DNA of 64,000 nucleotides from Ostreococcus lucimarinus (GCA_000092065.1 CP000587.1), one strand, 5' to 3'. Positions 28,414 through 53,574 are shown, counted from the stretch's first letter. The notes: generated by a model not told the origin, from the sequence alone. Made by a program: numbers and translations.

Positions 28414-28779
28414 TTACACACCCCGCGCACGCCCGATGTTTTCGATCGCGCGCGCCGCCGCCGCCGCGCGCGACGCGTCAGAGTCCGGGCGCGACGCTGG
28501 TATCGTCTGTCGTCGCGCTGCGATCGTCCGCGCGACTTCGGGATGCTGTATCCGACGCCATGTGCCGCGAGATCGTTCGCGCGCGCCGACCGCGTCTCCG
28601 CGGACGGTTTTCGGAGACGGGCCTGCGTCTCGGTTCGCAAACCTCCGATCGGGTTCCAGGCACCCGAGGCGCGCGCAGTCCGGCGACAGATTTTTCATCC
28701 CTCGGCGCGCGCGAAATCGGTCGGTCGGTGGGTGCCGGATTTCCGGATTCCCGTCGACGTCCTCGCGCGGACGTCGTCG

Positions 28780-31683: not shown

Positions 31684-32682
31684 TCAAAGAGTGACGTGGT
31701 TGGGGCGCTTGTACTTGATGATCGTCTTGGAGGCCTTGCTCGGGTGACGAGTCACCTTGGTCACGACCGGGAAGGACAAGTCGTCTTGAATGAACTGGCG
31801 CGTGTTCTCGCGGCGAACATCCTTGTCGGCAACCTCCGCAATCTTAATGATTTGCAAGCACGAAGCACGCACACGGTGGCGGGAAGCCATTTCCTCGTAG
31901 AGCGCATCCACCGCCGCGTTCATCGTCGTCTCGCGGTACTCCTTATACGAGTTGTGGTAACCCGTGCGGGACTGGTAACGGATCCAGATGCCGAAGTTCT
32001 TCACGGTCGTCGTGTCCGCCTCAAAGATCTATTCGTCATTGTGAACGAATCAACACTCGTCAGTCTCTCATTCCGCGTTTTTCATCGTCGCGACGCGCGT
32101 TTAACACGATTCGCGTCGCTCAAAGTCGCGTTCGCGTCCGCGTCCCGCTCTAGGGCTTTCACCCATCCACAAAGACGCACCTCGTTGCACGCGATGATTT
32201 GGCCGTTCGCCTTCTTCACCTTCTTGAGGCGAGACATGAAGTACCAGAACTTCGATCGCGCCTTGACGTCATCGAGCGCCCACAACTTCATGCGGAACAC
32301 CTCCGGCTCGGGGTGCGCATCGGTCGGCACGTGTCGGCCGACGACTTGGTATTGGTGGTACTGCGTCGAGCAATCATTCGCGCGTTTTCTCGTCAGTCGA
32401 TCGTTCGTCGAGCGCTTCGATCGCGCGCATCGCGAGCATGAAATTATCTTCCCCCGAACGCGCCGCCGCGCGCGCGACGTCCGCGCGCGCGTCCCACCGC
32501 GCGCGCGTCGTCCCATCGTCCCGTCGTCGCCCGTAGGGTTTCGCCGCGATCGCTCCGTCCGACGCTTTCGCGTCTCGCGTCGCGCGCGCCGCGCCGCGCG
32601 CGCCGCGCGTCGCGCGCGCGCGTCATCGTTTTCGCATCTCGCGCTGTCCACCGCGCGCGCCACGCACCCTAATTTTCGCCAT
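31684..32682 (-). CDS. RPL18A: 60S ribosomal protein L18a (eL20), 3 exons: 32668..32682, 32181..32360 and 31684..32028
   Basis: Exon 1 ATGGCGAAAATTAGG|GTGCGT (MAKIR). Exon 2 gacgcag|[14 protein letters not shown]...[16 protein letters not shown]. Exon 3 aatag|[26 protein letters not shown]... Arabidopsis RPL18a is [14 protein letters not shown]...[17 protein letters not shown]. Confidence 0.85.
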
Positions 32683-32857
32683 CGTTCGCGACGCGTCGAG
32701 TAAAGAGGTCGATGGCGCGGCGCGATGGCGCTCTTCACCGCGGGGCGAGCGACACACGGACCCTCCGGGTATCACACACGCCACCAGACACCCCCCGAAA
32801 CGGCCGACGCCGACGCGCGCGCCGCACGCGGCGACGCGCGCCGGCGACGCGCGCGCG

Positions 32858-33805
32858 ATGTCGCACGTCTCGGCGCGCGCGGCGATGCGGTCGTCGTCGA
32901 CGTCGACGGCGACGAGGACGAGGACGAGAACGACGCGCGCGCGCGGAGGGGATCGCGCGGCGCGCGGGGACGGTGGAGGAGGCGCGATTGCGACGGTCGA
33001 GCGCGGTTCGGCGCGCGCGACGACGCTCGGAACGCGCGCGCGACGGCGAGTCCTCGCGCGCGGGACGGCGTCGAGCGGAGACGAGGGACGAGAGCTTCGA
33101 AGACGCGCGGCGGCGGCGGTGGGGCGAGCGGCGGCGGCGAACGCGAGCGCGAGCGCGTCGGCGAACGCGCGGCGACCGAGAGTGGACGATGGAACGCGCG
33201 ATGGAGCGGTCGGGGACACCGCGTTCGAGCGGTCGGGGGGATTACTGTACGTGCGAAATTTCTTTGAACCCGAGACGTTCGAGCGCGTGGCGGCGGAGTG
33301 CGAAAAATTGCGCGCGAGCGTGACGCCGGAAAATAGAGCGTGCGCGCGGCAGAGGCTGGGTGTCATGGTACCGTCGGATAATTTCGTGCACGAAGCCTGC
33401 GTGGCGAGCTCGGTTTCTGATCGCCTGCGATCGTTATTGCTCGGTGAAAATGACGACGCGGGTGCGTTGGTCGCCGGCGACGTACCCGTGGAATTCAGAG
33501 TGTACCCCGTCGGCGGGTCGATGGACTGGCATAAAGACGTCGCGTTGTACACGAAACCGCAGTATGAAATAGTATTCACGGTGACAAACACGAGTGATAG
33601 TACGACGGAGTGGGAAGATGAGAGAACTGGAATGCGTTACGGCGGCTGGACCGAGCCAAACTCGGTCATCATCGTTCGCGCGGATGGCGCTCCGCACAGA
33701 GTGACGGGCGTGACGAGAGGTGAGCGTTCGATCATCAAGTTCGTGCTCACGCAAACGCTGGAGAAGACGGATGATTTCTTTGATAACCTTCTCATCTACA
33801 CGTAG
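32858..33805 (+). CDS. 2OG-Fe(II) oxygenase superfamily protein with S/T/R-rich (possibly organelle-targeting) N-terminus
   Basis: HxD...H facial triad candidates (DWHKD; APHRVTG) plus a downstream RSIIKFV basic residue in the C-terminal ~200 aa. The N-terminal half is low-complexity and the start is uncertain. Confidence 0.5.
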   Translation: MSHVSARAAMRSSSTSTATRTRTRTTRARGGDRAARGDGGGGAIATVERGSARATTLGTRARRRVLARGTASSGDEGRELRRRAAAAVGRAAAANASASASANARRPRVDDGTRDGAVGDTAFERSGGLLYVRNFFEPETFERVAAECEKLRASVTPENRACARQRLGVMVPSDNFVHEACVASSVSDRLRSLLLGENDDAGALVAGDVPVEFRVYPVGGSMDWHKDVALYTKPQYEIVFTVTNTSDSTTEWEDERTGMRYGGWTEPNSVIIVRADGAPHRVTGVTRGERSIIKFVLTQTLEKTDDFFDNLLIYT

Positions 33806-44300: not shown

Positions 44301-46367
44301 ACTATGCAAGGCGTAAGGGGGAGAAACGAGATTGCAAACGACTTTCAAAGCCTCGACCACGGCTTCAGTGTCGACCGCCTCTGCCGCATTCTCGACGACA
44401 TCTATGAGAACGTACCCAGAAGAGTAATATTCATCAAATTGCGCCTTTGCCGTGTGCACTCTTCCAGTGGGATGTGACGTCACAATCTTTAAAACGCTTA
44501 AAGATCCCAAAACGCACTCGCGAAGAGTTTTTTCACCCGGAGCCAAAGTGAGCAAGTCGAGCATCACCTTCGGCCCTTTTTGCGCCACGAAGGCTTCTAT
44601 GACGAGCCACGACTTGGTTTGCATGACGGCGGCGATGCGCTTTTGGCGACTCACTAAGCTAAATAGTCGCTCCGTCGCATCGTATCCGATATCCATCGCT
44701 TGTAGCATCGCACGATTATTGGTGCTCGTACTCTTCTTCGATTTGCCCATCACCTTTTCTTCGATCGCTTTGACGTGTTGCGCAAAATGCGCGCGCATGT
44801 ACTGTCTAAGCAACAAGCTCACGTGATCTCCAGTCTCTTTCGCCTGCGAAATCTCGTTCGGAGACATCGATGGGCGCACCTTATCTACGTCTACAACCAT
44901 CACTGCCAACGTCCGAAGGACGTCAAGGACGAGCTTGAGGCCAGCCTCCGCGTCAAACGCCACGACGACGACGGGGATTTGCATGGCAAACGTCAGGAAC
45001 AATGCGGCTTGACGACGCGCGTACTCGTTGCTGCAATCCAAAAGCTCGAGCGATACTTTCACATATCGTCGTGCCAAGTCCACCTGCGGCGACACGAGAC
45101 GTTCGAGCGCCGTGGTGATGCTCGCGATACCGAATAGGCAGCGCGTCAAATTGTAGTACGTCATAGGCCCTCTGGGAATGTTTAGCAACAACTTTGCGCC
45201 ACCGGCGTCAATGAAAGAAATCGCAAACTTCCGATGCGCCAGAAACGCACTGACGATAGAGAGCGCTTCGGATAGTTGAGGATCTCCAGGCCAAGCCGAA
45301 GTTTCTCCGTGGTGCCGCTTGAAGCCGTACTTCTCAAGCCACCCGTTTTCGCGGGGTCCCGCGACGAGACGCAGAGAGAGTTCGAGGACACCGTGCTTGA
45401 GTGCCTCTGCAAAACACTCAACATAATCGCCTATTGCTCCCACACACGTCAAGCGCGCTTGCATTAACGAGCGATGAAGATCGTCGTGATCGCCCGCATC
45501 GAGTCCGCTCGAGCAACCTTCGCCGGCGTCCTCGGCTAAACGCAACGTGTCCTCGCAAGAAATTTCCCACGCGGGCATGTCTTCGCCACCGCGACAGATC
45601 AACCGCACGAGCGGTATCAACAAACTCTCCATCACCCCGTTTCGTATGTTATCGCTCGCCGCGGTATCCGTGACGAGTAACGAGCAAAGCGCGCCCATCG
45701 CGTACGTCTTCAGCCGCCGCATGTCCAATTCCGCCGTCGGCCCGAGCAAGTGTTCGTTATCTCGCCTCGCCTCCATCGCTTGCACGTACGACCGACCCTC
45801 AAACGCGATCTCGCTCAGCACGTTGCAATACAAATCTTTCGTCGCATCATCGAACGGAAGGATTGAACATTTTTGCGCGTTTCGCATTCGGCACCCCAAC
45901 CCGCACGCGCGCATCACCCGCATCGCTCCCGCTTGCTCGCACAGTGCGCTGACGTACATCTGCTCCCCCACGGCGATGTCAACGATCGACCGCCGCCACT
46001 CAGGCTTGAACGGCATGTCATCGATCGCCTTCAGCCCGGCGTACTCGCGTCGGAGCGCGCTCGAGCACGACCCGCTGAAATCCTCAAAGCCTCGTTCCTC
46101 GCGTTCGATCGCGCGCGCCAGCGCGTGATACGACCGCGTCGCATCGTCAATAGCGCCTCGCGTGCGCGCCGCGACGACGCTTTTCCACGCCTCCTCCATC
46201 TCGCGCGCGTTTCGTTTCGATTCCGCCGCGAACGTCGACGCCGCCAACTTCTCCACGCTCGGCGGCACCGCGTGCTCGCGCGTTCGACGCCCCCGCGCGC
46301 GAGGCGTCGCCTCGCCGCCCGCGCCGCCGCTCGTCGTCGCGCGCGGCATCGCGTCGCCGCGCGGCAT
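41400..46367 (-). CDS. DCAF1: DCAF1/VprBP-like CRL4 substrate receptor: armadillo-like N-terminal region, LisH motif, WD40 domain, acidic C-terminal tail
   Basis: LisH is ELLQIMHEHLVAAGLTSTAASLVDEAG. The WD40 region runs ...LFAVTSVESCSIWSL...ILWDEVLWDVR...REVWDIRSSRLL. The tail is DDEDEYETDDDDEYETDDGDDEESEYETDDG. The ORF extends to 46844 through Arg-rich read-through; the likely start is ~46367. Confidence 0.75.
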   Translation of the reverse strand: MPRGDAMPRATTSGGAGGEATPRARGRRTREHAVPPSVEKLAASTFAAESKRNAREMEEAWKSVVAARTRGAIDDATRSYHALARAIEREERGFEDFSGSCSSALRREYAGLKAIDDMPFKPEWRRSIVDIAVGEQMYVSALCEQAGAMRVMRACGLGCRMRNAQKCSILPFDDATKDLYCNVLSEIAFEGRSYVQAMEARRDNEHLLGPTAELDMRRLKTYAMGALCSLLVTDTAASDNIRNGVMESLLIPLVRLICRGGEDMPAWEISCEDTLRLAEDAGEGCSSGLDAGDHDDLHRSLMQARLTCVGAIGDYVECFAEALKHGVLELSLRLVAGPRENGWLEKYGFKRHHGETSAWPGDPQLSEALSIVSAFLAHRKFAISFIDAGGAKLLLNIPRGPMTYYNLTRCLFGIASITTALERLVSPQVDLARRYVKVSLELLDCSNEYARRQAALFLTFAMQIPVVVVAFDAEAGLKLVLDVLRTLAVMVVDVDKVRPSMSPNEISQAKETGDHVSLLLRQYMRAHFAQHVKAIEEKVMGKSKKSTSTNNRAMLQAMDIGYDATERLFSLVSRQKRIAAVMQTKSWLVIEAFVAQKGPKVMLDLLTLAPGEKTLRECVLGSLSVLKIVTSHPTGRVHTAKAQFDEYYSSGYVLIDVVENAAEAVDTEAVVEALKVVCNLVSPPYALHSTDAKSQSGKLQRSHSIDGKSFSVFDYARMEETFEAGRKHIREAFGVKSLLNLLFKTSKTLPQPSMNISRALCCRALLGLSRDASIANTLQTLQIARHLSELLRETGTTQHSAFDELAIVDSKRENGTAATVQAAATEFHRCAVELIAATAGFANVKATTPAVASDAAAPPLAKLERHLIAAATKVRYPHNELLQIMHEHLVAAGLTSTAASLVDEAGMERPGRSASVGRLCPSPAPRLKLNFKSKTARTKMYRRAPRSRMTGAARGMLGIAGEPFTLGLEQGSTQAPPRKGPRRGESSRASKLSPAVVTTSVNSVKTSKPGANGIVVTPCSTRRGKKRKTNGEEIRKSLITPPIAVGATERACCANEHQTPSPSVKERVHKEFPTPGVLVSDAPRGETGCGVRSRLDSILTQYLRAQHRQCAAPITACAPFSLLAPHQCPQPKRILEAPRNLTARLRQREWANVTGWDAGMRRADRHFVYSRFRPLRAIRGNDCLFTAASFLYGVPEQIIIGDNDGELHLYDHISGELLEIAATPGRVSGAIRKIAAAGPLCPTPLFAVTSVESCSIWSLPNPDDAPYMLWCSGHSGCAINSTGSQFVSGSLESVVELADMETHRVTRRLTSNTGGPPLLTKNNDEVSFSPSDDLILWDEVLWDVRLANDKPIRRFDRYSEAAGACFHPGGNEIIIGREVWDIRSSRLLRVVPSLDRAALKFNLTGTVGMAHILHPRNEPPLSSLRKCHHPYKHSFCTIDMLDYSDICTVDVPSGMIDAAWDVNSDTLCATVEYDILNTHESTVRLHEVGRLRPADDESDVEDEHEEIEPMVLNMDHDGWEEDYSDEDSEERIEDADGRVNINEARIRHQINSLREMVREAEVDWVRYDDDGEGVHSGDDDSSEYDSDFIDSDSDDAEDDLHFGRALLRRALHGRRPAVTRYDDDDDEDEYETDDDDEYETDDGDDEESEYETDDG

Positions 46368-46560
46368 CGCGCGCGCGCCGCTCTGCCGAGCCGCCGGCGC
46401 GTCGCCGGCATTCGTCGACGCGTTCGAGTCGGCACAGACGCGCTCGCGAACGCATCGCGCGCCGAACGAGCGCGACGACTCGGCGTCGCTCGGTCGCGCG
46501 CGTCGTCGGACCTCGCGCCGCGCCCGTCGTCCGCGTCGCTCGCGCGCGCGCGTTCGGACG

Positions 46561-48705
46561 ATGTTTCGATTGACGACGACGTCCCCGGCGTTGGCGACGC
46601 GATGCGCGCTCGGACGGCGCATCGCGGGCGCGCATCGCGCGCGAATGACGACGTGCAACGCACGGCGGCACGATGTCGTCGGAACGCGCGTCGTGGGCGC
46701 GCGACGAGACGCGAGGACGCGATGGACGGGGGCGGGCGCGAGCGCGGCGGCGAGCGATAAGGCGAACGCGACGGCGAGCGACGCGGAGCCGGTGAAACTG
46801 CTGACGAGCGATGAGAGCGAGAATTTGTTGAAAATACGACACACGGTGCGTTGGAAATGCGAGGCGTGGGGAGACTTGCGTCGGTGGTGGATCGGACGAC
46901 GACGCGCGAGGGGCGAGCGGAGGGGGTTTGTGCGCGACCTGAACCACGCAGGGACGAAAGGAGACTGACGATGGGTTCGCTGATTTTACGCTTCGCAGAG
47001 CGCGCACGTGATGGCGATGGCGGTGCAAAAGGTGTTTCCGAGCGCGCAGTGCACGATCGGGCCTTGGATCGACCGGGGATTTTATTACGACTTTTACTAC
47101 CCAGAGGGTTTCACCGATCAAGACATGAAGAAGATTCAAAAGGAAATGTATAAGATTATTCGCAAGGATTACCCGCTTCGCAGGGAGGAAGTGTCGCGAG
47201 AAGAAGCCGAACGCCGAATCCGGGAGATTAACGAGCCGTACAAGCTCGAAATCTTAGAAGCCATCAAGACGGAGCCGATTACGATTTATCACATCGGCGA
47301 CGAGTGGTGGGATTTGTGCGCGGGACCTCACGTGGAGTCCACGGGCAAGCTTGATCAGAAAGCGTTCGCGCTCGAAAGTTTGGCTGGGGCGTACTGGCGT
47401 GGTGACGAAACGAAGCCGATGTTGCAGCGCATTTACGGCACGGCGTGGGAGAATGAAGCACAGCTTCAGGCGTACAACGATTTCAAGGCGGAGGCGAAGC
47501 GTCGCGATCACCGAACGATCGGTAAGGATTTGGGTTTGTTCTCCCTTCAACAAGATAACGCTGGCGGCGGCTTGGTGTTTTGGCATCCGAAAGGCGCGCA
47601 CATGCGACACATGATCGAGACGTACTGGAAGGATCTCCATCTGGCGCGCGGGTACGAGCTCTTGTACTCACCGCACGTCGCCAGGCAAGAGTTGTGGAAA
47701 ACCTCTGGTCACAGCGATTTTTATTCCGAGAACATGTACCAGCCCATCAAGGTTGAAGATGAAATGTATCAGCTCAAACCGATGAACTGCCCGTTCCACA
47801 TCGTCGTTTACCAAGACGGATACTACTCGTACAAGGATTTACCCATTCGTTGGGCTGAGCTTGGCACGGTGTATAGATATGAACGTAGCGGCACCATGCA
47901 CGGCTTGTTCCGAGTGAGAGGTTTCACGCAGGATGACGCGCATATATTCTGCCTCCCGGATCAAATCACAGACGAGATCAAGAGCGTTCTCGATTTGACT
48001 GAAGAAATTCTGAGCACGTTTGGTTTTAAGGAGTTTGAAGTCAACCTATCCACCAGGCCGGAAAAGTCTGTCGGCGACGACAAGATTTGGGACACCGCGG
48101 AAGGTGCGCTTAAGGACGCATTGCAAATGAAGGGATGGGATTACATCGTCGACGACGGCGGTGGAGCGTTCTACGGGCCGAAGATTGACATTAAGATTTT
48201 GGACGCAATCGGGCGTAAGTGGCAATGCTCCACGGTGCAGCTCGACTTCAACCTGCCGGAGCGATTCGACCTATCCTACGTCGATCGCGAGAACGCAAAG
48301 CAGCGACCAATCATGATTCACCGCGCCATTTTCGGTTCCCTTGAGAGATTCTTCGGTATTCTCACCGAGAACTACGCCGGGGAGTTCCCGTTGTGGCTCG
48401 CCCCGATTCAAGTGCGCTTGCTTCCTGTGACGGACGAAGTCAGCGATTATACCGAAGGCGTCGCGAAAAAGCTCCGCGATGCGGGCGTGCGCGTTGAAAT
48501 TTGCACCGGACAACGTCTCGCTAAGCTCGTGCGCACGGCTGAGAAGGCAAAGATCCCGGTCATGGCGGTCGTCGGTAGAGAAGAAGCGGAGAACAACACG
48601 TTGGCTGTGCGTACGTTCAAGGATGGCGACGTCGGTACATTGTCTGTCGACGAAGTGTTGTCACGCGTCACCACCGCGAACGCGACAAAGGGTCAAAGCT
48701 TCTAG
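46561..48705 (+). CDS. Threonyl-tRNA synthetase, bacterial/organellar type with transit peptide, 2 exons: 46561..46845 and 46999..48705
   Basis: Exon 2 after cgcag| reads SAHVMAMAVQKVFPSAQCTIGPWIDRGFYYDF..., matching E. coli ThrS SSHILAHAVKQLFP...IGPVIDNGFYYD. The class II core is present (LKPMNCPFH, VRGFTQDDAHIFC). Exon 1 MFRLTTTSPALATRC... ends ...ENLLKIRHT|GTGCGT, corresponding to E. coli EGLEIIRHS. The N-terminus is S/T/R-rich. Confidence 0.8.
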
Positions 48706-48793: not shown

Positions 48794-49456
48794 TCAATCG
48801 AAGTCGCTGTCTTCGTCGTCGCTATTCAACGCCATCTTCGCCCCTCGACGAATATTCGTCGCCTTATCTATCACATTCATCGCCTTCTTAGCCGCCCGCG
48901 GGTTCGCATCGCAGTCGTTATCGCCACCTTCGTAATTAATCACCCCCTTCGAAGCGAGCACCAGACGCAAATGCTCTGTGGGAAAATCATCCGTCCCGCC
49001 GACGTCGTCGAAACCGACAATATAATCCACAACCTTGGTGTTACGAATCAGACAGAGCGTCGGCAACATCCAAATTTTAAGCTTTTCCGTCAAAAACGGC
49101 GACTTCTCGGCGTTGATTCTACAGACTAACGTCTCCGTGTGCTTCCTCGCCACCGCCGCGACGTGTTTATCCATCACCTCGCACGGCCACGACGAAGTTC
49201 TATAAAAATGTACAATCATCTTATCCTCTCCCTTCATCTTTTCGAAAAACGCTTTCTCATCATCTAAATCATTCACCACCCCGTGTCCACGCTCCAGCGC
49301 GCTCTTCCGCGCTTCGTGCGTCGATTTCATCGCCTCCAAGCGTTTCCTTCGAATATCCTCCAACGCGTCGCCGTCCATCTTTTCCAATCGATGCAGCTCA
49401 TCGTCCACGGAATCCTCCACCGCGCGCGCCATGTCGTACACCTTTTGCTCCACCAT
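48794..49456 (-). CDS. TXNDC9: Thioredoxin domain-containing protein 9 / phosducin-like protein 3 (PhLP3)
   Basis: Coiled N-terminus, then a Trx-like block FFEKMKGEDKMIVHFYR...WPCEVMDKH...IWMLPTLCLIRN...VVDYIVGFDDVGG...FPTEHLR, then an acidic C-terminus. Confidence 0.75.
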   Translation of the reverse strand: MVEQKVYDMARAVEDSVDDELHRLEKMDGDALEDIRRKRLEAMKSTHEARKSALERGHGVVNDLDDEKAFFEKMKGEDKMIVHFYRTSSWPCEVMDKHVAAVARKHTETLVCRINAEKSPFLTEKLKIWMLPTLCLIRNTKVVDYIVGFDDVGGTDDFPTEHLRLVLASKGVINYEGGDNDCDANPRAAKKAMNVIDKATNIRRGAKMALNSDDEDSDFD

Positions 49457-49875
49457 GGCCTATCGCGTTCGAGTTGCGTCAGTCGTCGTCCGTTCGCGTT
49501 CGGTCGCGGTCAACGCGCGCGCGACAGCTCGAAAGTCAAAAAATCAAATCGACGCGCGCGCGGCGTGTCGCTTTCACCGTCGCGCGCGGCGCTTTTCGAA
49601 CGCACCTGCATCGCGTCGTTAGCGTTCATCGCGCGCGCGTCCTCCGTCGTCGCACGCGGTGTGTCGTCGTCGCGATCGCGTCGTCGTCGCGTTCTGACGC
49701 TCGGAGTGAGCCGTGAGCGTAAAGTCTTCTTTGAGCGATACTGATTATAAAACTTCTCGAACGAGCGTCGCGCGCGCGAAGAATCGGACGAGCGAGGACG
49801 CCGAGCGATATCGCTCAAACGTCTTTTCTCGCACGTCGTCACCGATTCGCGCGGCACGGCGCCGTCGATTTGATT

Positions 49876-50559
49876 TTAAAGGTATGGATTCCGCGGTTTC
49901 GCCGTCAAAGCGACGCCGTCCAAGGCGCGCTTCAAATCTTCCTCGAATCCTTGCTCCAGAGGATCTCCCGGGCCGTACCTGCGAAGGACTCGGCCATCGC
50001 GACCGACTAAAAACTTGGTGTAATTCCAAGGAATTTCTCCGTCGAACGGCGGTCTCTTTAAAAACTCGTACACCGGCGATTGCTTCGCCGAACTCGTGAC
50101 GTCGTCCACCAACGGCGCCGTCAAAACCGCATCCGGATCATCCTTGAATTCCTCGTACGACGCCGGATCGATTCCTTTGCACCTGACCGGTTTAGCCTTG
50201 ACCGCGATTTTATCCATCACCGGAAACGTATCGACGCCGAATTTCTTATACGCGTACGCGCGTTCCATCTCGCTCGTTCCCGGCGCTTGGCACCCGAACT
50301 GATTCGCGGGAAACGCGATGATTTCAAACCCCCTATCGCGATACGTCTCATACATCCGCCTCAGCGCTGGGTAGTTGCTGTTCACCAGAGGTCACTCGCT
50401 CGCCACGTTGACGACGACGCTCACTTTGCCCCGATACGCCGCCAGCGGCGTCGGTTTCCCGTACTGCATCACCGTGAGATCGTACAACGACTCGGGCGAC
50501 TCCGCCGCGCGCGCCGGCGTCACCGTCACCATCGCCGCGAGCGTCGCGACGCGCGCCAT
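49876..50559 (-). CDS. GPX: Glutathione peroxidase with in-frame TGA (predicted selenocysteine) at the catalytic position; N-terminal signal/transit peptide
   Basis: ORF 50392..50784(-) ends ...GKVSVVVNVASE at a TGA (50392-50394). ORF 49876..50385(-) continues in the same frame as PLV-NSNYPALRRMYETYRDRGFEIIAFPANQFGCQAPG...WNYTKFLVGRDGRV. The concatenation aligns without a gap to GPX VNVAS[QK][CU]GLTNSNY...FPCNQFGGQEPG...KWNFTKFLVD. Proposed start is MARVATLAAM at 50559. Confidence 0.75.
50392..50394 (-). other. In-frame UGA codon, predicted selenocysteine, in the GPX active site
   Basis: It sits at the exact Cys/Sec position of the VNVAS-x-[C/U] motif. The read-through frame is conserved for 165 further codons. 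Confidence 0.7.
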
Positions 50560-50786
50560 CGCCCGTCGTCGCGTCGTCGTCGCGTCGTCGTCGTAAGCAT
50601 CGTCGACGGTTACCGCGACACCCCTACCGTTCGTCGCGCGCGTCGTCGTCGCCGTCGCGCGCGCTCGCCTCGTCGTCGCGCGCGTCGTCGTCATCGTCCG
50701 CGTCGCGCCCGCGCGCGCGGCCGTCGTCGACATGAATCGCCGCGCCGGCGCACCTCCGCGCGTCACAGAGTGTCGCGTCCGCATCC

Positions 50787-51785
50787 ATGTCGGCGCGCGC
50801 GTTCGCGTTCGCGTCGGCGTCGCGCGCGCAGCCGACGCGCGCGCTCGCGCGCCGTCGCGACGCGCGGAGACGCGCGTCGAACGCCGACGGCGCGTCGTCC
50901 TGGACCGTCGTCGTCGATCGCGCGTCGTCGCGCTTCGGCAGCGACCTGCTCGTCGAGCGCGTGTCGAGCGACTGCCCGAACGCCGCGTTCGCGGGCGCGC
51001 TGGTGCTGACGCGCGCGGACGCGCCCGACGCGGTGCTGAGCGAACGACGAGACGACGGACGCGAGTCGCGGTCGGGACGCGCGGTCGGGCGAGGCGGGGT
51101 GTTCGACGCGTTCGCGACGCTGCCGGCGACGCTCGAGGGCGAGGCGAGACGAGGGAAGAAGACGATCGGAATATTAGGCCTGGGGGCGGGCACGTGCGCG
51201 GAAATCATGGCGGGACATCACGACGACGTGGACATGATCGGGTGGGAGCTGGATCCAGCCATCGTGGAACTGGCGAGACGACACTTCGCGGTGGGGGATT
51301 TGGAACGCGAGGGGAGGTTGCGCGTCGTCACGGGGGACGCGTTCGAGGGGTGCGCGCGGAGCGAGATCGAGTTCGATGGACTCATCGTCGATTGTTTCGA
51401 TGAGAATTCAGTCGTGGTGGCGTGTTTGAAGGATAAAGCGACGTGGGAGGCGTTGGCGGCGCGACTGAAACCGGGCGGTCGCGTCGTGGCCAACGTGAGC
51501 ACGGGACGAGGGAAAGGCGCGAAGCTGGACGACGCCATCGCGTGCGCGCAGGCGCTCGCGGACGCGACGTCGGATGAAGTCACGATTTGGCGCGCGGGGG
51601 CGTGTTCGATATGGAACGAGCTCATTTTGAGCGGGCCCGAGGTGAATTGGCGTCGCGTCGCGGACGAGTACGGCGATTTCGCGAGTTTGACAAAGGATTG
51701 GTTTTACTTTAAAAAGCCAGCGGACGCGGCTTCCGGCGCGCCGTGGCTCGCGAAAACGCTCGGGGTAGACAACGATAGCGCATAG
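50787..51785 (+). CDS. Spermidine-synthase-like (PABS-fold) SAM-dependent transferase with N-terminal transit-peptide-like extension
   Basis: ILGLGAGTCAEIM...IGWELDPAIVELARRHF...LRVVTGDAFEG...FDGLIVDCFD matches the spermidine/spermine-synthase-like Rossmann layout. Confidence 0.55.
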   Translation: MSARAFAFASASRAQPTRALARRRDARRRASNADGASSWTVVVDRASSRFGSDLLVERVSSDCPNAAFAGALVLTRADAPDAVLSERRDDGRESRSGRAVGRGGVFDAFATLPATLEGEARRGKKTIGILGLGAGTCAEIMAGHHDDVDMIGWELDPAIVELARRHFAVGDLEREGRLRVVTGDAFEGCARSEIEFDGLIVDCFDENSVVVACLKDKATWEALAARLKPGGRVVANVSTGRGKGAKLDDAIACAQALADATSDEVTIWRAGACSIWNELILSGPEVNWRRVADEYGDFASLTKDWFYFKKPADAASGAPWLAKTLGVDNDSA

Positions 51786-51826: not shown

Positions 51827-52499
51827 TCAATCAAAGTCGCCGAAGACGCTTTGAATCGCCGCCTTCGTCAAACCATCCGGCGTGTGCGTCGCGCGAAATC
51901 CCGCTCGAATCGCCGCCTCAACGTTCCGCTCGTCGTCGTCGAACAACACCACGGTACCCCTAAACTTTTCCCACGCGTCTTCACCGTACTTTTCGCGCAA
52001 AAGTTCCTCTATTTGTCTATTCTTCCCGCCCTCGACCGCGCACCCATCCTTCACGCCGACGCGACTCGGCGTCGAAATGTCCGCTCGCGTCATCGCCCCC
52101 TCGCCCAACACGCGATCGACGTACGCTTGTATGACCGCATACTTGCCAAAACTCGTTATTTTCACATCCATCCCTCGTCGATTCGCGTACTCTGTCGCCC
52201 GCGCCGTCGTCGCGTCCGTCAGTCGTCTCGTCGTCGTCGTCGCGTCCGTCGACCGCGCGCGCGCTCGACCGCGGCTTCGAATCTCGCGGTCGAGCCTCTT
52301 CGTCTCTCGTCGCACCTAAAAACGCTCGAAAGCACTCGACGTCGACGAACTCTCGCTCGACGTCGCGCAGCTCGAGCGCCTCGACGCGCTCGACCGTGAC
52401 GCGCTCGGCGAACGAGTGCCGCGCGAGGACGGTGAGATCGAAATCGACGCACGCCAGGCGCGCGTCGCCGGACGCGGGCGCCGCGTCGTCGCGCGCCAT
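51827..52499 (-). CDS. MDP1: Magnesium-dependent phosphatase-1 (MDP-1, HAD superfamily), 2 exons: 52316..52499 and 51827..52191
   Basis: Exon 1 is MARDDAAPASGDARLACVDFDLTVL...ECFRAFL(g|GTGCGA), with the HAD DxDxT motif matching VFDLDYTLW. The intron ends gcgacag|. Exon 2 is ag-YANRRGMDVKITSFGK...TVVLFDDDERNVEAAIRAGFRATHTPDGL (human MDP1 [27 protein letters not shown]). The spliced length of 182 aa compares with 176 aa in human. Confidence 0.6.
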
Positions 52500-52647
52500 C
52501 GGTCGCGTCGCGCGATGTCGCGTCGCCGACGTCGCGTCGCGTCCAACACCATCGCGTCGTCGATCGGCATCGGCAGAGCGCGACGACGCGATGGACTCGG
52601 ACTCGCGACGCGGCGACGCGGCGCGCGCGCGATCGACGCGCGGCGCG

Positions 52648-53574
52648 ATGCGCGGCGCGCTCGCGGCGCTCGTCGGCGCGCTCGCGGCGTCGCGCATCGC
52701 GCGCGCTTCGTCGCAGGGTGTTGAGACACCGCCGCTGAACGCGCACGTGAGCGCGCGCGCGCGCGTCGCGAGCGCGGGAATGGACCCGAACATCGAGGCG
52801 ACGGCGGCGGCGTGGTTCGCGAATCTCGGGTTCCGCGTCCTCGAGGGCGCGACGGCGACGACGCGGGGCGCGTGGGGAGGGACGGCGCGCGAGAGCGACG
52901 CGCGGTTCGCGACGTCGTATTGCCTGGACGCGAGCACGAACACGAGCGCGCTGGAGGATTACGATTTCGTCGGGTGGTTGCCGGTGTCGAACGCGATCGA
53001 GGACGTCATGAGCGATCGCGTCGACTTTAAGGTGGTGCTGTTCGAAACGATGGCGACGGAGTGGTGGGAGCACGCGAGGACGCGAGCGGAGAGCGCGAAG
53101 GCGCTGGGAGACGCGTGCGGATGCGGCGCGGGGGCGACGCGGTCGACGGCGTCGACGTGTGGGAACGAGGATTATCATTATTGCGATATTTATCCGTGCG
53201 TGTGGGAGCGCGCGTTCGGGAGCGCGACGCCGGACGAGGAGACGTGGAAGACCAAGTACATCGAGCGCGTGCGCGAGATCAAATCCGCCGCGCCGCCGGG
53301 GCGTTTATTGACGATACCGATGACCGCCGCCCCGGTCGGGCACGCCACCGCGGTGAAGATATCGAAACTCATAGCGCAGTTCCTCGAGATCACGGACGAT
53401 CTCGACGCCTTCGGCGAGGCGTACCCGTTCCTTCGTCGCGATTTGAACGGCGTCGCGCTCAGCAACGTCTCCATCGCGTGGGTCGCGTTCGTCGTCGTCG
53501 CCAGCGCGTACATCGGTTTCTTCGCCAACAAGAGCGATCCGGCGAGGCGATTCGTGCGTCGGCACATCTGTTAG
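52648..53574 (+). CDS. Hypothetical type-I membrane/secreted protein (signal peptide, Cys-containing ectodomain, C-terminal TM helix)
   Basis: MRGALAALVGALAASRIARA is signal-like. C-terminal VSIAWVAFVVVASAYIGFF is TM-like. No family assignment. The ORF starts at 52396, but the start must lie beyond the divergent MDP-1 exon 1. Confidence 0.4.
   Translation: MRGALAALVGALAASRIARASSQGVETPPLNAHVSARARVASAGMDPNIEATAAAWFANLGFRVLEGATATTRGAWGGTARESDARFATSYCLDASTNTSALEDYDFVGWLPVSNAIEDVMSDRVDFKVVLFETMATEWWEHARTRAESAKALGDACGCGAGATRSTASTCGNEDYHYCDIYPCVWERAFGSATPDEETWKTKYIERVREIKSAAPPGRLLTIPMTAAPVGHATAVKISKLIAQFLEITDDLDAFGEAYPFLRRDLNGVALSNVSIAWVAFVVVASAYIGFFANKSDPARRFVRRHIC

What the first reader, a model, noticed from the sequence alone, without database searches (positions are those of the whole stretch)
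49500..50559. Glutathione peroxidase with in-frame UGA at the catalytic residue: predicted selenoprotein with an unlocated SECIS
Two minus-strand ORFs (50392..50784 and 49876..50385) are in the same frame. They are separated only by a TGA that falls exactly where GPX enzymes carry the peroxidatic Cys/Sec (VNVASE-U-PLVNSNY versus VNVAS[QK][CU]GLTNSNY). Homology continues without a gap for 165 further codons through FPANQFGCQAPG and WNYTKFLVGRDG. That is the signature of selenocysteine recoding, and Mamiellales are known to be rich in selenoproteins. The residues right after the UGA (P-L-V instead of G-L/K-T) are atypical. A eukaryotic SECIS should lie in the 3' UTR (minus strand, ~49500-49875), between the GPX stop and the TXNDC9 start. 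By eye I see GTGAC/AAAA candidates and a GAGCGATATCGCTC palindrome there, but I cannot fold them with confidence.
Basis: partly seen in the sequence, partly recalled or inferred. Interest (0 to 1): 0.8.

Follow-up and report, generated by a model that had tools for sequence, protein, structure and literature searches.

The report
Known Ostreococcus selenoprotein GpxD, SECIS located
This is a real selenocysteine-containing glutathione peroxidase gene of the alga Ostreococcus lucimarinus, already published in 2007 as "GpxD"; I located the RNA signal that recodes its UGA, so the finding is correct but not new.

Summary
On the minus strand one reading frame runs from ATG 50784 (or the better conserved ATG 50733) to TAA 49878-49876. 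It is interrupted only by TGA 50394-50392, at the peroxidatic Cys/Sec position of glutathione peroxidase.

The window is Ostreococcus lucimarinus CCE9901. The gene is the published selenoprotein "O. lucimarinus GpxD" (Lobanov et al. 2007, PMC2375036, Additional file 2), with the same sequence and numbering.

- **TGA conservation:** the TGA is kept in all 69 orthologous loci I fetched, never replaced by a Cys codon. The codons on both sides show coding constraint.
- **SECIS:** This is the Ostreococcus SECIS type described in 2007.
- **SECIS support:** it is the only descriptor hit in the window, and covariation across orthologues supports it.

Two further points, both inferred only:
- A conserved N-terminal extension looks like a chloroplast transit peptide followed by a twin-arginine thylakoid-lumen signal.
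- The family has a fixed U-P-L motif and a 36-residue insertion with two invariant cysteines.

Novelty: already known.

The parts
49876..50784 (-). GpxD coding sequence as in the published model: ATG 50784 to TAA 49878-49876, Sec = residue 131, no intron.
   Evidence: The numbering in Lobanov 2007 Additional file 2 (residue 111 = P of PTPLAAYRG; C-terminus ...KPRNPYL) matches a start at 50784.
50731..50733 (-). Alternative, better conserved start codon (Met 113 residues before Sec, MSTTAARAG...).
   Evidence: In the 98%-identical relative L016 the Met at -114 is kept, but the Met equivalent to 50784 is not. ATG 50784 lies only 2 nt from the divergent ATG 50787 of the PABS-domain gene. The choice of start is inferred.
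50563..50571 (-). Arg-Arg-Arg codons (residues -59 to -57 from Sec): twin-arginine motif, preceded by an acidic stretch (DDAYDDD).
   Evidence: 34 of 39 distinct orthologue N-termini have RR, then at least 12 uncharged residues, then AxA. In 26 of them there is no Met after the RR. The function is inferred.
50506..50562 (-). Hydrophobic domain and A-R-A (AMARVATLAAMVTVTPARA). Cleavage is predicted after Ala -38, so the mature protein would start AESPESLYDL.
   Evidence: TAT HMMs were inconclusive.
50392..50394 (-). In-frame TGA = selenocysteine codon (peroxidatic residue).
50383..50391 (-). Pro-Leu-Val after Sec, in place of the canonical Gly-x-Thr. U-P-L is invariant in the orthologue group.
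   Evidence: The 2p5q alignment has C-G-M-T here.
50287..50292 (-). Invariant Cys (+34), then Gln (+35) at the spacing of the catalytic Gln81 of GPX4 (FGCQ in place of FGKQ).
   Evidence: Invariant columns C71 and Q72 of alignment A1. The GPX4 numbering is from my own knowledge.
50086..50193 (-). 36-residue insertion (KPVRCKGIDPASYEEFKDDPDAVLTAPLVDDVTSSA) with an invariant Cys at 50181-50179. It is absent from all solved GPx structures.
   Evidence: phmmer splits the match to 2p5q into query 2-103 and 140-194, with only one residue of the chain (110) between chain 109 and 111. Conservation is shown.
50023..50028 (-). Trp-Asn of WNYTKF, the catalytic Trp and Asn of the GPx tetrad.
49770..49855 (-). 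SECIS element, form 2. Helix I 49853-49846 pairs with 49780-49773. Unpaired G 49842. Core UGA 49841-49839 faces GA 49785-49784. Helix II 49837-49828 pairs with 49796-49787 (one U.U mismatch). Unpaired AAAA 49827-49824. Mini-stem 49823-49797 contains GAGCGATATCGCTC.
   Evidence: The MFE fold reproduces the helices. It is the only hit of a generic SECIS descriptor in 128 kb, against 0.1 expected. The covariance model scores 84 bits here and 19 bits for the next best hit. Orthologues carry the same element and covariation supports it.
48794..49456 (-). Downstream neighbour: thioredoxin/phosducin-like (TXNDC9-like) gene, which bounds the 3' UTR.
   Evidence: Pfam Thioredoxin E 6.8e-08. Exact match to XP_001418816.1. 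The order GPX, thioredoxin-like gene, ThrRS is kept in O. tauri.

Best explanation
The locus is the nuclear gene for GpxD, a selenocysteine glutathione peroxidase of Ostreococcus lucimarinus.

Recoding. The mRNA is translated through UGA 50394-50392 as selenocysteine. A form-2 SECIS stem-loop in the 3' UTR (49855-49770), about 550 nt downstream of the UGA, directs this. It has a kink-turn core (G-UGA-C facing C-GA-U), AAAA 11 nt above the core, and a long apical mini-stem. By analogy with other eukaryotes, it would recruit SBP2, eEFSec and Sec-tRNA.

Enzyme. The product is a GPx-fold peroxidase with an intact Sec/Gln/Trp/Asn tetrad that reduces hydroperoxides. It belongs to a prasinophyte subfamily with U-P-L in place of U-G-x-T, a 36-residue insertion and two invariant cysteines.

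What is shown and what is inferred. Shown here: the conserved TGA, coding constraint on both sides, the SECIS structure with covariation, and identity with the published gene. Inferred: actual Sec insertion in this species, the reductant used, and targeting. The N-terminal extension (transit-like region, acidic stretch, RR, hydrophobic domain, AxA) suggests import into the chloroplast and Tat-dependent transfer to the thylakoid lumen.
For: Gene and TGA:
- One frame interrupted by one TGA.
- GSHPx match across the TGA and alignment to 2p5q with the Cys on the TGA.
- Sequence and numbering identical to 'O. lucimarinus GpxD', printed with U, in PMC2375036 Additional file 2.
- The organism is confirmed by exact flanking proteins.
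- TGA is kept in 69 orthologous loci of Ostreococcus-like, higher-GC and Bathycoccus-like (about 50% GC) lineages, with no Cys codon.
- In-frame synonymous excess upstream of the TGA.

SECIS:
- The MFE fold gives the expected helices.
- It is the single descriptor hit in the window, against 0.1 per simulated window.
- Model R1 finds an element just 3' of the stop, on the coding strand, in 29 loci besides the window. 20 of those were not in its training set.
- 92.1% of cells are paired, against 25-48% when the partner is slid.
- 11 of 17 pairs change on both sides.
- The covariation score is 0.518 against 0.177 for shuffles (0 of 500 reach it).

Literature (PMC2375036): all Ostreococcus SECIS elements but one have G before the quartet, and almost all have a long mini-stem, which is this anatomy. 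Five Sec-GPx genes are reported per species, and 75Se labelling of O. tauri shows that Sec insertion is active in the genus. A 'Glutathione peroxidase D' is quantified in the O. tauri proteome (PMC8834552). Its identity with this orthologue is probable but not verified.
Against: - Rfam's SECIS models give no hit, even at E<=10.
- The z-score of the fold against shuffles is only -1.19 in this GC-rich context.
- Alignment A5 was fitted to the model, which inflates the pair counts. The slid-partner control answers this only partly.
- I examined no transcript or peptide evidence for O. lucimarinus itself.
- For the targeting inference: TAT HMMs did not hit, apart from one sub-threshold match (19.7 bits against a cut-off of 24). 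A TargetP survey of O. tauri selenoproteins reported no chloroplast transit peptides, although that depends on the N-terminus of the gene model used.
Confidence: 0.95

Rival explanations
1. Pseudogene or split gene. The TGA is a true stop, the upstream 130-codon ORF is a dead fragment, and only the 169-codon ORF from GTG 50385 (or a later ATG) is expressed, without the active site.
For: Automatic gene callers treat it this way. All close database homologues (P0001-P0022) start just after the TGA. No transcript data were examined.
Against: The TGA and both flanks are conserved in 69 loci across divergent lineages. The upstream part is under coding constraint. A SECIS with covariation follows. 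The gene is published as a selenoprotein.
Confidence: 0.01
2. The UGA is read through, but not as selenocysteine (near-cognate Trp/Cys insertion or a variant code). The downstream stem-loop is an unrelated 3' UTR structure.
For: One database relative (P0043) is recorded with W at this position. Rfam does not recognise the stem-loop.
Against: The position is the peroxidatic Cys/Sec of the family. The stem-loop has every SECIS hallmark, at the correct spacings. Ostreococcus has a demonstrated Sec system (PMC2375036). The W in P0043 is most simply an artefact of the caller's translation table; I did not check this.
Confidence: 0.02
3. The functional SECIS is the other by-eye candidate further down the UTR (49635-49582, ATGA...AAAA...GA), not the element at 49855-49770.
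For: It has an ATGA and an AAAA, flanked by GC-rich complementary arms. Model R1 gives it 18.2 bits.
Against: It fails the generic descriptor. It scores at the level of GC-rich background hits elsewhere in the window. No counterpart was found at that position in the orthologues, whereas the proximal element is found in nearly all of them.
Confidence: 0.02
4. On localisation only. The N-terminal extension is not a chloroplast-plus-lumen signal. Either translation starts at Met -55 (50559), giving an ER signal peptide and a secreted or ER protein, or the bipartite presequence targets the mitochondrial intermembrane space.
For: O. lucimarinus and O. tauri have a Met just after the RR. The 2007 O. 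tauri model starts there (residue 36 = P of PRSLGEY). TargetP found no cTP among O. tauri selenoproteins. TAT HMMs were inconclusive.
Against: 26 distinct orthologue N-termini have no Met between the RR and the mature protein, so the RR must be translated. The order transit-like region, acidic stretch, RR, uncharged stretch, AxA is conserved in 34 of 39. This is the classical layout of thylakoid Tat precursors (my own knowledge).
Confidence: 0.45

Closest known systems
O. lucimarinus GpxD (Lobanov et al. 2007, Genome Biol 8:R198, Additional file 2)
   Same: It is the same gene. The sequence around Sec (...PLAAYRGKVSVV(V)NVASEUPLVNSNYPALRRMYET...), the C-terminus (...TAKPRNPYL) and the residue numbering (start at 50784, Sec131) all match.
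   Different: Nothing in the gene itself differs. The held text of the paper gives no coordinates or drawing of this gene's SECIS, and does not discuss its N-terminal signal, the U-P-L motif or the insertion.
O. tauri GpxD (orthologue; locus L001, GCA_002158475.1)
   Same: 80% identity in the mature part. TGA at the same codon, the same GUGA form-2 SECIS about 60 nt after the stop, and the same gene order GPX, thioredoxin-like gene, ThrRS.
   Different: U-P-L-Q instead of U-P-L-V. The apical mini-stem sequence differs. The published model starts after the RR motif.
Ostreococcus-type SECIS (G before the quartet, long mini-stem; PMC2375036 Figure 1)
   Same: G-UGA core, form 2, unpaired A's 11-12 nt above the core, and an 11-bp mini-stem.
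   Different: None seen. It differs from the canonical metazoan AUGA SECIS, and Rfam's SECIS models do not detect it.
Poplar GPX5 (PDB 2p5q), a thioredoxin-dependent Cys-GPx
   Same: Best solved relative (E 2.1e-32). Same fold signature: NVAS-x-C/U, NQFGxQ, WN[FY]xKFLV.
   Different: It has Cys rather than Sec and C-G-M-T rather than U-P-L-V. It has no 36-residue insertion. The usual resolving-Cys position is not a Cys in GpxD; instead Cys +34 and Cys +71 are invariant.
Mammalian GPX4 (Sec-GPx, monomeric)
   Same: Sec at the same position, the catalytic Gln at +35, Trp-Asn present, and 3' UTR SECIS recoding (residue numbers from my own knowledge).
   Different: AUGA SECIS, U-G-K-T motif, no insertion, different targeting.
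Thylakoid Tat (delta-pH pathway) precursors such as OE23 and OE17, and lumenal peroxiredoxin Q
   Same: Bipartite presequence layout: transit peptide, acidic stretch, RR, hydrophobic domain, AxA. A thiol-type peroxidase in the lumen has a precedent in plant PrxQ (PMC3095285).
   Different: No experimental localisation exists. No GPx or selenoprotein in the lumen is reported in the papers I could search.

Membership tests
Eukaryotic selenoprotein gene (UGA-Sec recoding) | In-frame UGA aligned with Cys or Sec of homologues | tested here: met
   TGA 50394-50392 aligns with the peroxidatic Cys of 2p5q and with U in the published GPx alignment.
Eukaryotic selenoprotein gene (UGA-Sec recoding) | Protein-level conservation and coding constraint on both sides of the UGA, with the UGA itself conserved | tested here: met
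   69 loci keep the TGA. Synonymous/nonsynonymous differences are 1098/1273 upstream and 1421/1227 downstream, against about 200/2200 out of frame.
Eukaryotic selenoprotein gene (UGA-Sec recoding) | SECIS in the 3' UTR: helix I, internal loop, UGA/GA quartet, helix II of about 10-12 bp, unpaired AA(R) | tested here: met
   49855-49770 (-). It is the only descriptor hit in 128 kb. Covariation supports it.
Eukaryotic selenoprotein gene (UGA-Sec recoding) | Sec machinery in the organism (tRNA-Sec, SBP2, eEFSec, SPS2, SecS, PSTK) | not tested
   There is no tRNA gene in the window. The literature reports 29 selenoproteins in O. lucimarinus and 75Se labelling in O. tauri.
Eukaryotic selenoprotein gene (UGA-Sec recoding) | Selenium physically present in the product | not testable with these tools
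   This needs 75Se labelling or mass spectrometry of the Sec peptide. O. tauri proteomics lists a 'Glutathione peroxidase D', but its orthology with this gene was not verified.
Glutathione peroxidase (Pfam PF00255) | Profile match above the curated cut-off | tested here: met
   75.6 bits against a cut-off of 27 (E 2.7e-21), with C substituted for U.
Glutathione peroxidase (Pfam PF00255) | Catalytic tetrad Sec/Cys, Gln, Trp, Asn | tested here: met
   U, Q (+35, FGCQ) and W-N (WNYTKF) are all invariant in A1.
Glutathione peroxidase (Pfam PF00255) | Active-site signature NVAS-x-[CU]-G-x-T | tested here: not met
   G-x-T is replaced by P-L-[VQA], invariantly in this orthologue group. Other Sec-GPx loci fetched in the same scan keep U-G (L073, L074, L080, L081, L086, L089).
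Rfam SECIS families (e.g. SECIS_1 RF00031) | Covariance-model match | tested here: not met
   No SECIS family is listed, even at E<=10, for 49300-50000. I take this as a limit of the models for the GUGA, long-mini-stem type, not as absence of a SECIS.
Thylakoid-lumen Tat precursor | Twin-arginine, then an uncharged hydrophobic domain, then an AxA cleavage site, downstream of a transit-peptide-like region | tested here: met
   34 of 39 distinct orthologue N-termini fit, including this one: RRR, then AMAR followed by 15 uncharged residues (VATLAAMVTVTPA within VATLAAMVTVTPARA), ending in ARA.
Thylakoid-lumen Tat precursor | Recognition by a trained predictor or HMM | tested here: inconclusive
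   There were no TAT-signal hits, apart from UCR_Fe-S_N (19.7 bits, below the cut-off of 24) for the Bathycoccus-like orthologue. TargetP and TatP were not available.
Thylakoid-lumen Tat precursor | Experimental lumen localisation, or import dependent on the pH gradient | not testable with these tools
   This needs import assays or microscopy.

The most novel reading that the evidence does not exclude
GpxD is a thylakoid-lumen selenoenzyme. Its conserved presequence (transit-like region, acidic stretch, twin arginine, hydrophobic domain, AxA) would send a folded Sec-peroxidase through the chloroplast Tat pathway. The subfamily-specific features (U-P-L active-site loop, 36-residue insertion, two invariant cysteines) would be adaptations to the acidic, oxidising lumen and to a non-glutathione reductant. 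This would be the first lumenal GPx or selenoprotein, and it would contradict the published statement that no O. tauri selenoprotein is chloroplast-targeted.
Probability: 0.35. Interest if true: 0.55.

Novelty: already known. Interest (0 to 1): 0.2.

Why it matters
The main result is confirmatory. A reader working from raw sequence alone correctly recognised a published selenoprotein gene that automatic annotation still breaks at the UGA. Every close database homologue is truncated there, and one gene model splices the Sec region out.

The practical value is threefold:
- The report gives exact coordinates and a comparative model for the GUGA, long-mini-stem SECIS that Rfam misses.
- It shows that the U-P-L active-site variant and the 36-residue insertion are fixed features of a prasinophyte GPx clade.
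- It gives a testable lead: this clade may be targeted to the thylakoid lumen, which would place a selenium-dependent peroxidase next to the water-splitting side of photosystem II.

Tried and rejected
- **Rfam cmscan of 49300-50000 at E<=10:** only chance hits appeared (snoTBR2, HOXA11-AS1_3 and others) and no SECIS family. I rejected this as evidence of absence, because Ostreococcus SECIS elements are atypical.
- **RNAalifold on a MAFFT alignment of 17 elements:** it paired the UGA with the 3' strand by Watson-Crick pairs and missed helix II, because one-base bulges shift the register. I replaced it with a covariance-model alignment.
- **Second SECIS candidate at 49635-49582:** rejected.
- **Other SECIS elements in the window:** none found with model R1 or with the generic descriptor.
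- **Structure prediction:** The U-to-C substituted sequence is not an exact window sequence, and the exact translation contains the stop. I therefore could not see where the insertion or the two invariant cysteines lie relative to Sec.
- **TAT-signal HMMs in NCBIfam and Pfam:** inconclusive.
- **Link to ostta07g00300:** looking up the O. tauri orthologue by exact sequence gave only OUS47604.1 / A0A1Y5IHG0.
- **Literature searches for a lumenal GPx or selenoprotein:** nothing relevant found.
- **Bathycoccus-like orthologues:** they failed the strict scan, but a relaxed scan finds a GUGA element 64 nt after the stop. In L011 the core reads GCGA, in a 3x-coverage contig.

Full report
**1. The observation**

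On the minus strand the sequence reads ...GTC AAC GTG GCG AGC GAG TGA CCT CTG GTG AAC AGC AAC TAC..., that is VNVASE-stop-PLVNSNY. The ORFs 50392..50784 and 49876..50385 are in one frame and are separated only by TGA 50394-50392. The frame ends at TAA 49878-49876.

With Cys in place of the stop, Pfam GSHPx matches residues 26-121 across the TGA (E 2.7e-21, 75.6 bits against a cut-off of 27). The closest solved structure is poplar GPX5 (2p5q, E 2.1e-32). It aligns VNVASKCGMTNSNY to VNVASE-U-PLVNSNY, which puts its peroxidatic Cys on the TGA.

**2. Organism and prior knowledge**

The two flanking proteins are exact matches to Ostreococcus lucimarinus CCE9901: XP_001418816.1 (thioredoxin-domain protein) and XP_001418594.1 (PABS-domain protein).

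Additional file 2 of Lobanov et al. 2007 (PMC2375036) lists "O. lucimarinus GpxD". It prints ...PT-PLAAYRGKVSVVNVASEUPLVNSNYPALRRMYET... starting at residue 111, and ends ...GVALTAKPRNPYL. Residue 111 for the P of PTPLAAYRG means their model starts at ATG 50784 and Sec is residue 131. So this exact gene is a published selenoprotein.

The same paper reports five Sec-GPx genes in each Ostreococcus species and 75Se labelling in O. tauri. It also reports that all Ostreococcus SECIS elements but one have G before the quartet, and that almost all have a long mini-stem.

**3. Comparative test of the UGA**

All close database homologues (P0001-P0022) begin just after the Sec codon, so gene callers truncate them there. 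A Cymbomonas model (P0024) skips the Sec region altogether, and one relative (P0043) carries W at the site.

I fetched the DNA of O. tauri and of metagenomic relatives. Of these, 69 loci have the context NVASE-TGA-PL[VQA]N. The codon is TGA in every one and never a Cys codon. This holds even though one of the two search patterns was back-translated from NVASECPL, which would have favoured Cys codons.

Among 15 diverse orthologues I counted codon differences on each side of the TGA:

| Region and frame | Synonymous | Nonsynonymous |
|---|---|---|
| 33 codons upstream, in frame | 1098 | 1273 |
| Same region, shifted by 1 (stops appear) | 221 | 2240 |
| Same region, shifted by 2 (stops appear) | 174 | 2147 |
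| 40 codons downstream, in frame | 1421 | 1227 |

Both halves are therefore translated in the same frame. This excludes the pseudo-fragment reading.

**4. The SECIS**

Twenty nucleotides after the stop lies an 86-nt stem-loop at 49855-49770 (-). Its parts are:
- Helix I: 49853-49846 pairs with 49780-49773 (8 bp).
- A short internal loop, then an unpaired G at 49842.
- Core: UGA 49841-49839 faces GA 49785-49784. The flanking U.U and C.C complete the non-Watson-Crick quartet.
- Helix II: 49837-49828 pairs with 49796-49787 (9 bp plus one U.U).
- Unpaired AAAA at 49827-49824, 11 nt after the core.

The minimum-free-energy fold reproduces these helices. Its energy is not exceptional for this GC-rich sequence (z -1.19).

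I wrote a generic descriptor: R-UGA, helix II of at least 9 bp with at most one mismatch, AA 11-14 nt from the core, GA on the 3' strand, and helix I of at least 6 bp. It hits once in both strands of the 64-kb window, at this site. Simulated windows give 0.1 hits.

The same architecture, mostly with a GUGA core, lies shortly after the stop in most orthologues, with different helix sequences. Examples of helix II are GACGUGCGAG/CUCGCUCGUC here, GACGCUCCGC/GCGGAGCGUC in L009, and GACCGCGGACG/CGUCCGCG(C)GUC in L043-L048. Bathycoccus-like loci have one 64 nt after the stop.

A covariance model built from 10 elements gives these results:
- It scores 84 bits here and at most 19 bits anywhere else in the window.
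- It finds 29 elements in other loci, all on the coding strand directly after the stop. Twenty of those loci were not in the training set.

On that alignment:
- 92.1% of cells form standard pairs, against 25-48% when partners are slid by 1-3 columns.
- 11 of 17 pairs show changes on both sides.
- The covariation score is 0.518, against 0.177 for shuffles (0 of 500 reach it) and at most 0.212 for slid versions.

The alignment is fitted to the model, so these counts lean towards the structure. The slid-partner control and the independent descriptor point the same way.

Rfam's SECIS models do not detect the element. That is consistent with its non-metazoan form. A second by-eye candidate at 49635-49582 scores at background level and is not conserved.

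**5. How it most likely works**

The UGA is decoded as Sec under the direction of this SECIS. The enzyme keeps the catalytic tetrad. Sec, Gln (+35, in FGCQ) and Trp-Asn (WNYTKF) are all invariant.

It departs from canonical GPx in three conserved ways:
- U-P-L-[VQA] replaces U-G-x-T. Pro lacks the backbone NH that Gly offers next to the selenolate; this point is my own knowledge and inference.
- A 36-residue insertion (50193-50086) lies between DKIAVK and SPVYEFLK. Solved structures have one or two residues there.
- Two cysteines are invariant, at +34 (directly before the catalytic Gln) and at +71 (in the insertion). The usual resolving-Cys position is not a Cys.

The reductant is therefore uncertain. 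The nearest relatives are thioredoxin-dependent Cys-GPx enzymes.

**6. N-terminus**

In 34 of 39 distinct orthologue N-termini, the region before the mature protein has a fixed layout. It runs: an S/T/A/R-rich stretch, then an acidic stretch, RR, at least 12 uncharged residues, and AxA. In 26 of them no Met follows the RR, so translation must begin upstream of it. Here the layout reads DDAYDDDATTT-RRR-AMARVATLAAMVTVTP-ARA|AESPES.

The Met at 50733 is conserved in the closest relative (L016), whereas the Met at 50784 is not. ATG 50784 also lies only 2 nt from the divergent ATG 50787 of the neighbouring gene. I therefore favour 50733 as the start, as an inference.

This layout is that of thylakoid Tat precursors (my own knowledge). 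HMM tests were inconclusive. A TargetP survey of O. tauri selenoproteins found no chloroplast transit peptides, but the 2007 O. tauri GpxD model starts after the RR. I found no report of a lumenal GPx or selenoprotein. This is a lead, not a finding.

**7. Verdict**

It is already known as O. lucimarinus GpxD. The SECIS is now placed at 49855-49770 and fits the published Ostreococcus type. Interest is low for the gene itself. The possible lumen targeting and the fixed active-site variant are the only parts that go beyond the literature I could read.

Noticed in passing
window 50506-50784 (-): The conserved N-terminal extension of GpxD looks like a chloroplast transit peptide, then an acidic stretch, a twin-arginine motif, a hydrophobic domain and AxA. 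This is the layout of a thylakoid-lumen Tat signal. In 26 orthologue N-termini no Met follows the RR, so the extension must be translated.
   Followed up: partly
window 50784-50787: The published GpxD start (ATG 50784, minus strand) and the annotated start of the divergent PABS-domain gene (ATG 50787, plus strand, XP_001418594.1) are 2 nt apart. Either the transcripts overlap head to head or one start is internal. The conserved Met at 50733 is the likelier GpxD start.
   Followed up: partly
window 50086-50193 and 50290-50292 (-): The GpxD clade has a 36-residue insertion that is absent from all solved GPx structures. It also has two invariant cysteines, one directly before the catalytic Gln (FGCQ) and one in the insertion (KPVRCKG). 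They may form a disulfide or act as a resolving Cys. The geometry could not be modelled.
   Followed up: partly
proteins P0001-P0024 and P0043: Public gene calls for this family are systematically wrong at the Sec codon. Most start just after the TGA, the Cymbomonas model P0024 skips the Sec region, and P0043 carries W at the Sec position. The exact 169-aa post-TGA ORF of this window is recorded only in Logan and ENA, not as a named O. lucimarinus protein in NCBI.
   Followed up: partly
window 49582-49635 (-): There is a second SECIS-like string (ATGA...AAAA...GA between GC-rich arms) further down the same intergenic region. It scores 18 bits with the model, fails the descriptor, and no conserved counterpart was found. 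It is probably chance in GC-rich sequence.
   Followed up: yes
L009 3400-3620; L010 2840-3600; L011 about 3540: Three metagenome-assembled relatives carry apparent assembly errors in this gene. L009 has a frameshift near the C-terminus, L010 has frameshifts around the Sec region, and L011 reads GCGA where sister contigs read GUGA in the SECIS core.
   Followed up: no
loci L073, L074, L080, L081, L086, L089: Other Sec-GPx genes were picked up in the same scan. They have the canonical U-G motif and also TGA at the active site. The scan found an AUGA-core SECIS in L080 and none in the other five. They are paralogous clades, not GpxD.
   Followed up: no
window 50560-50720 (-): Runs of GACGACGACGCG-type low-complexity sequence encode the Thr/Arg/Ala-rich presequence. 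Many weak GC-rich covariance-model hits elsewhere in the window (for example 28427-28771, 32400-33350, 46150-46700 and 52380-52760) come from similar repeats.
   Followed up: no
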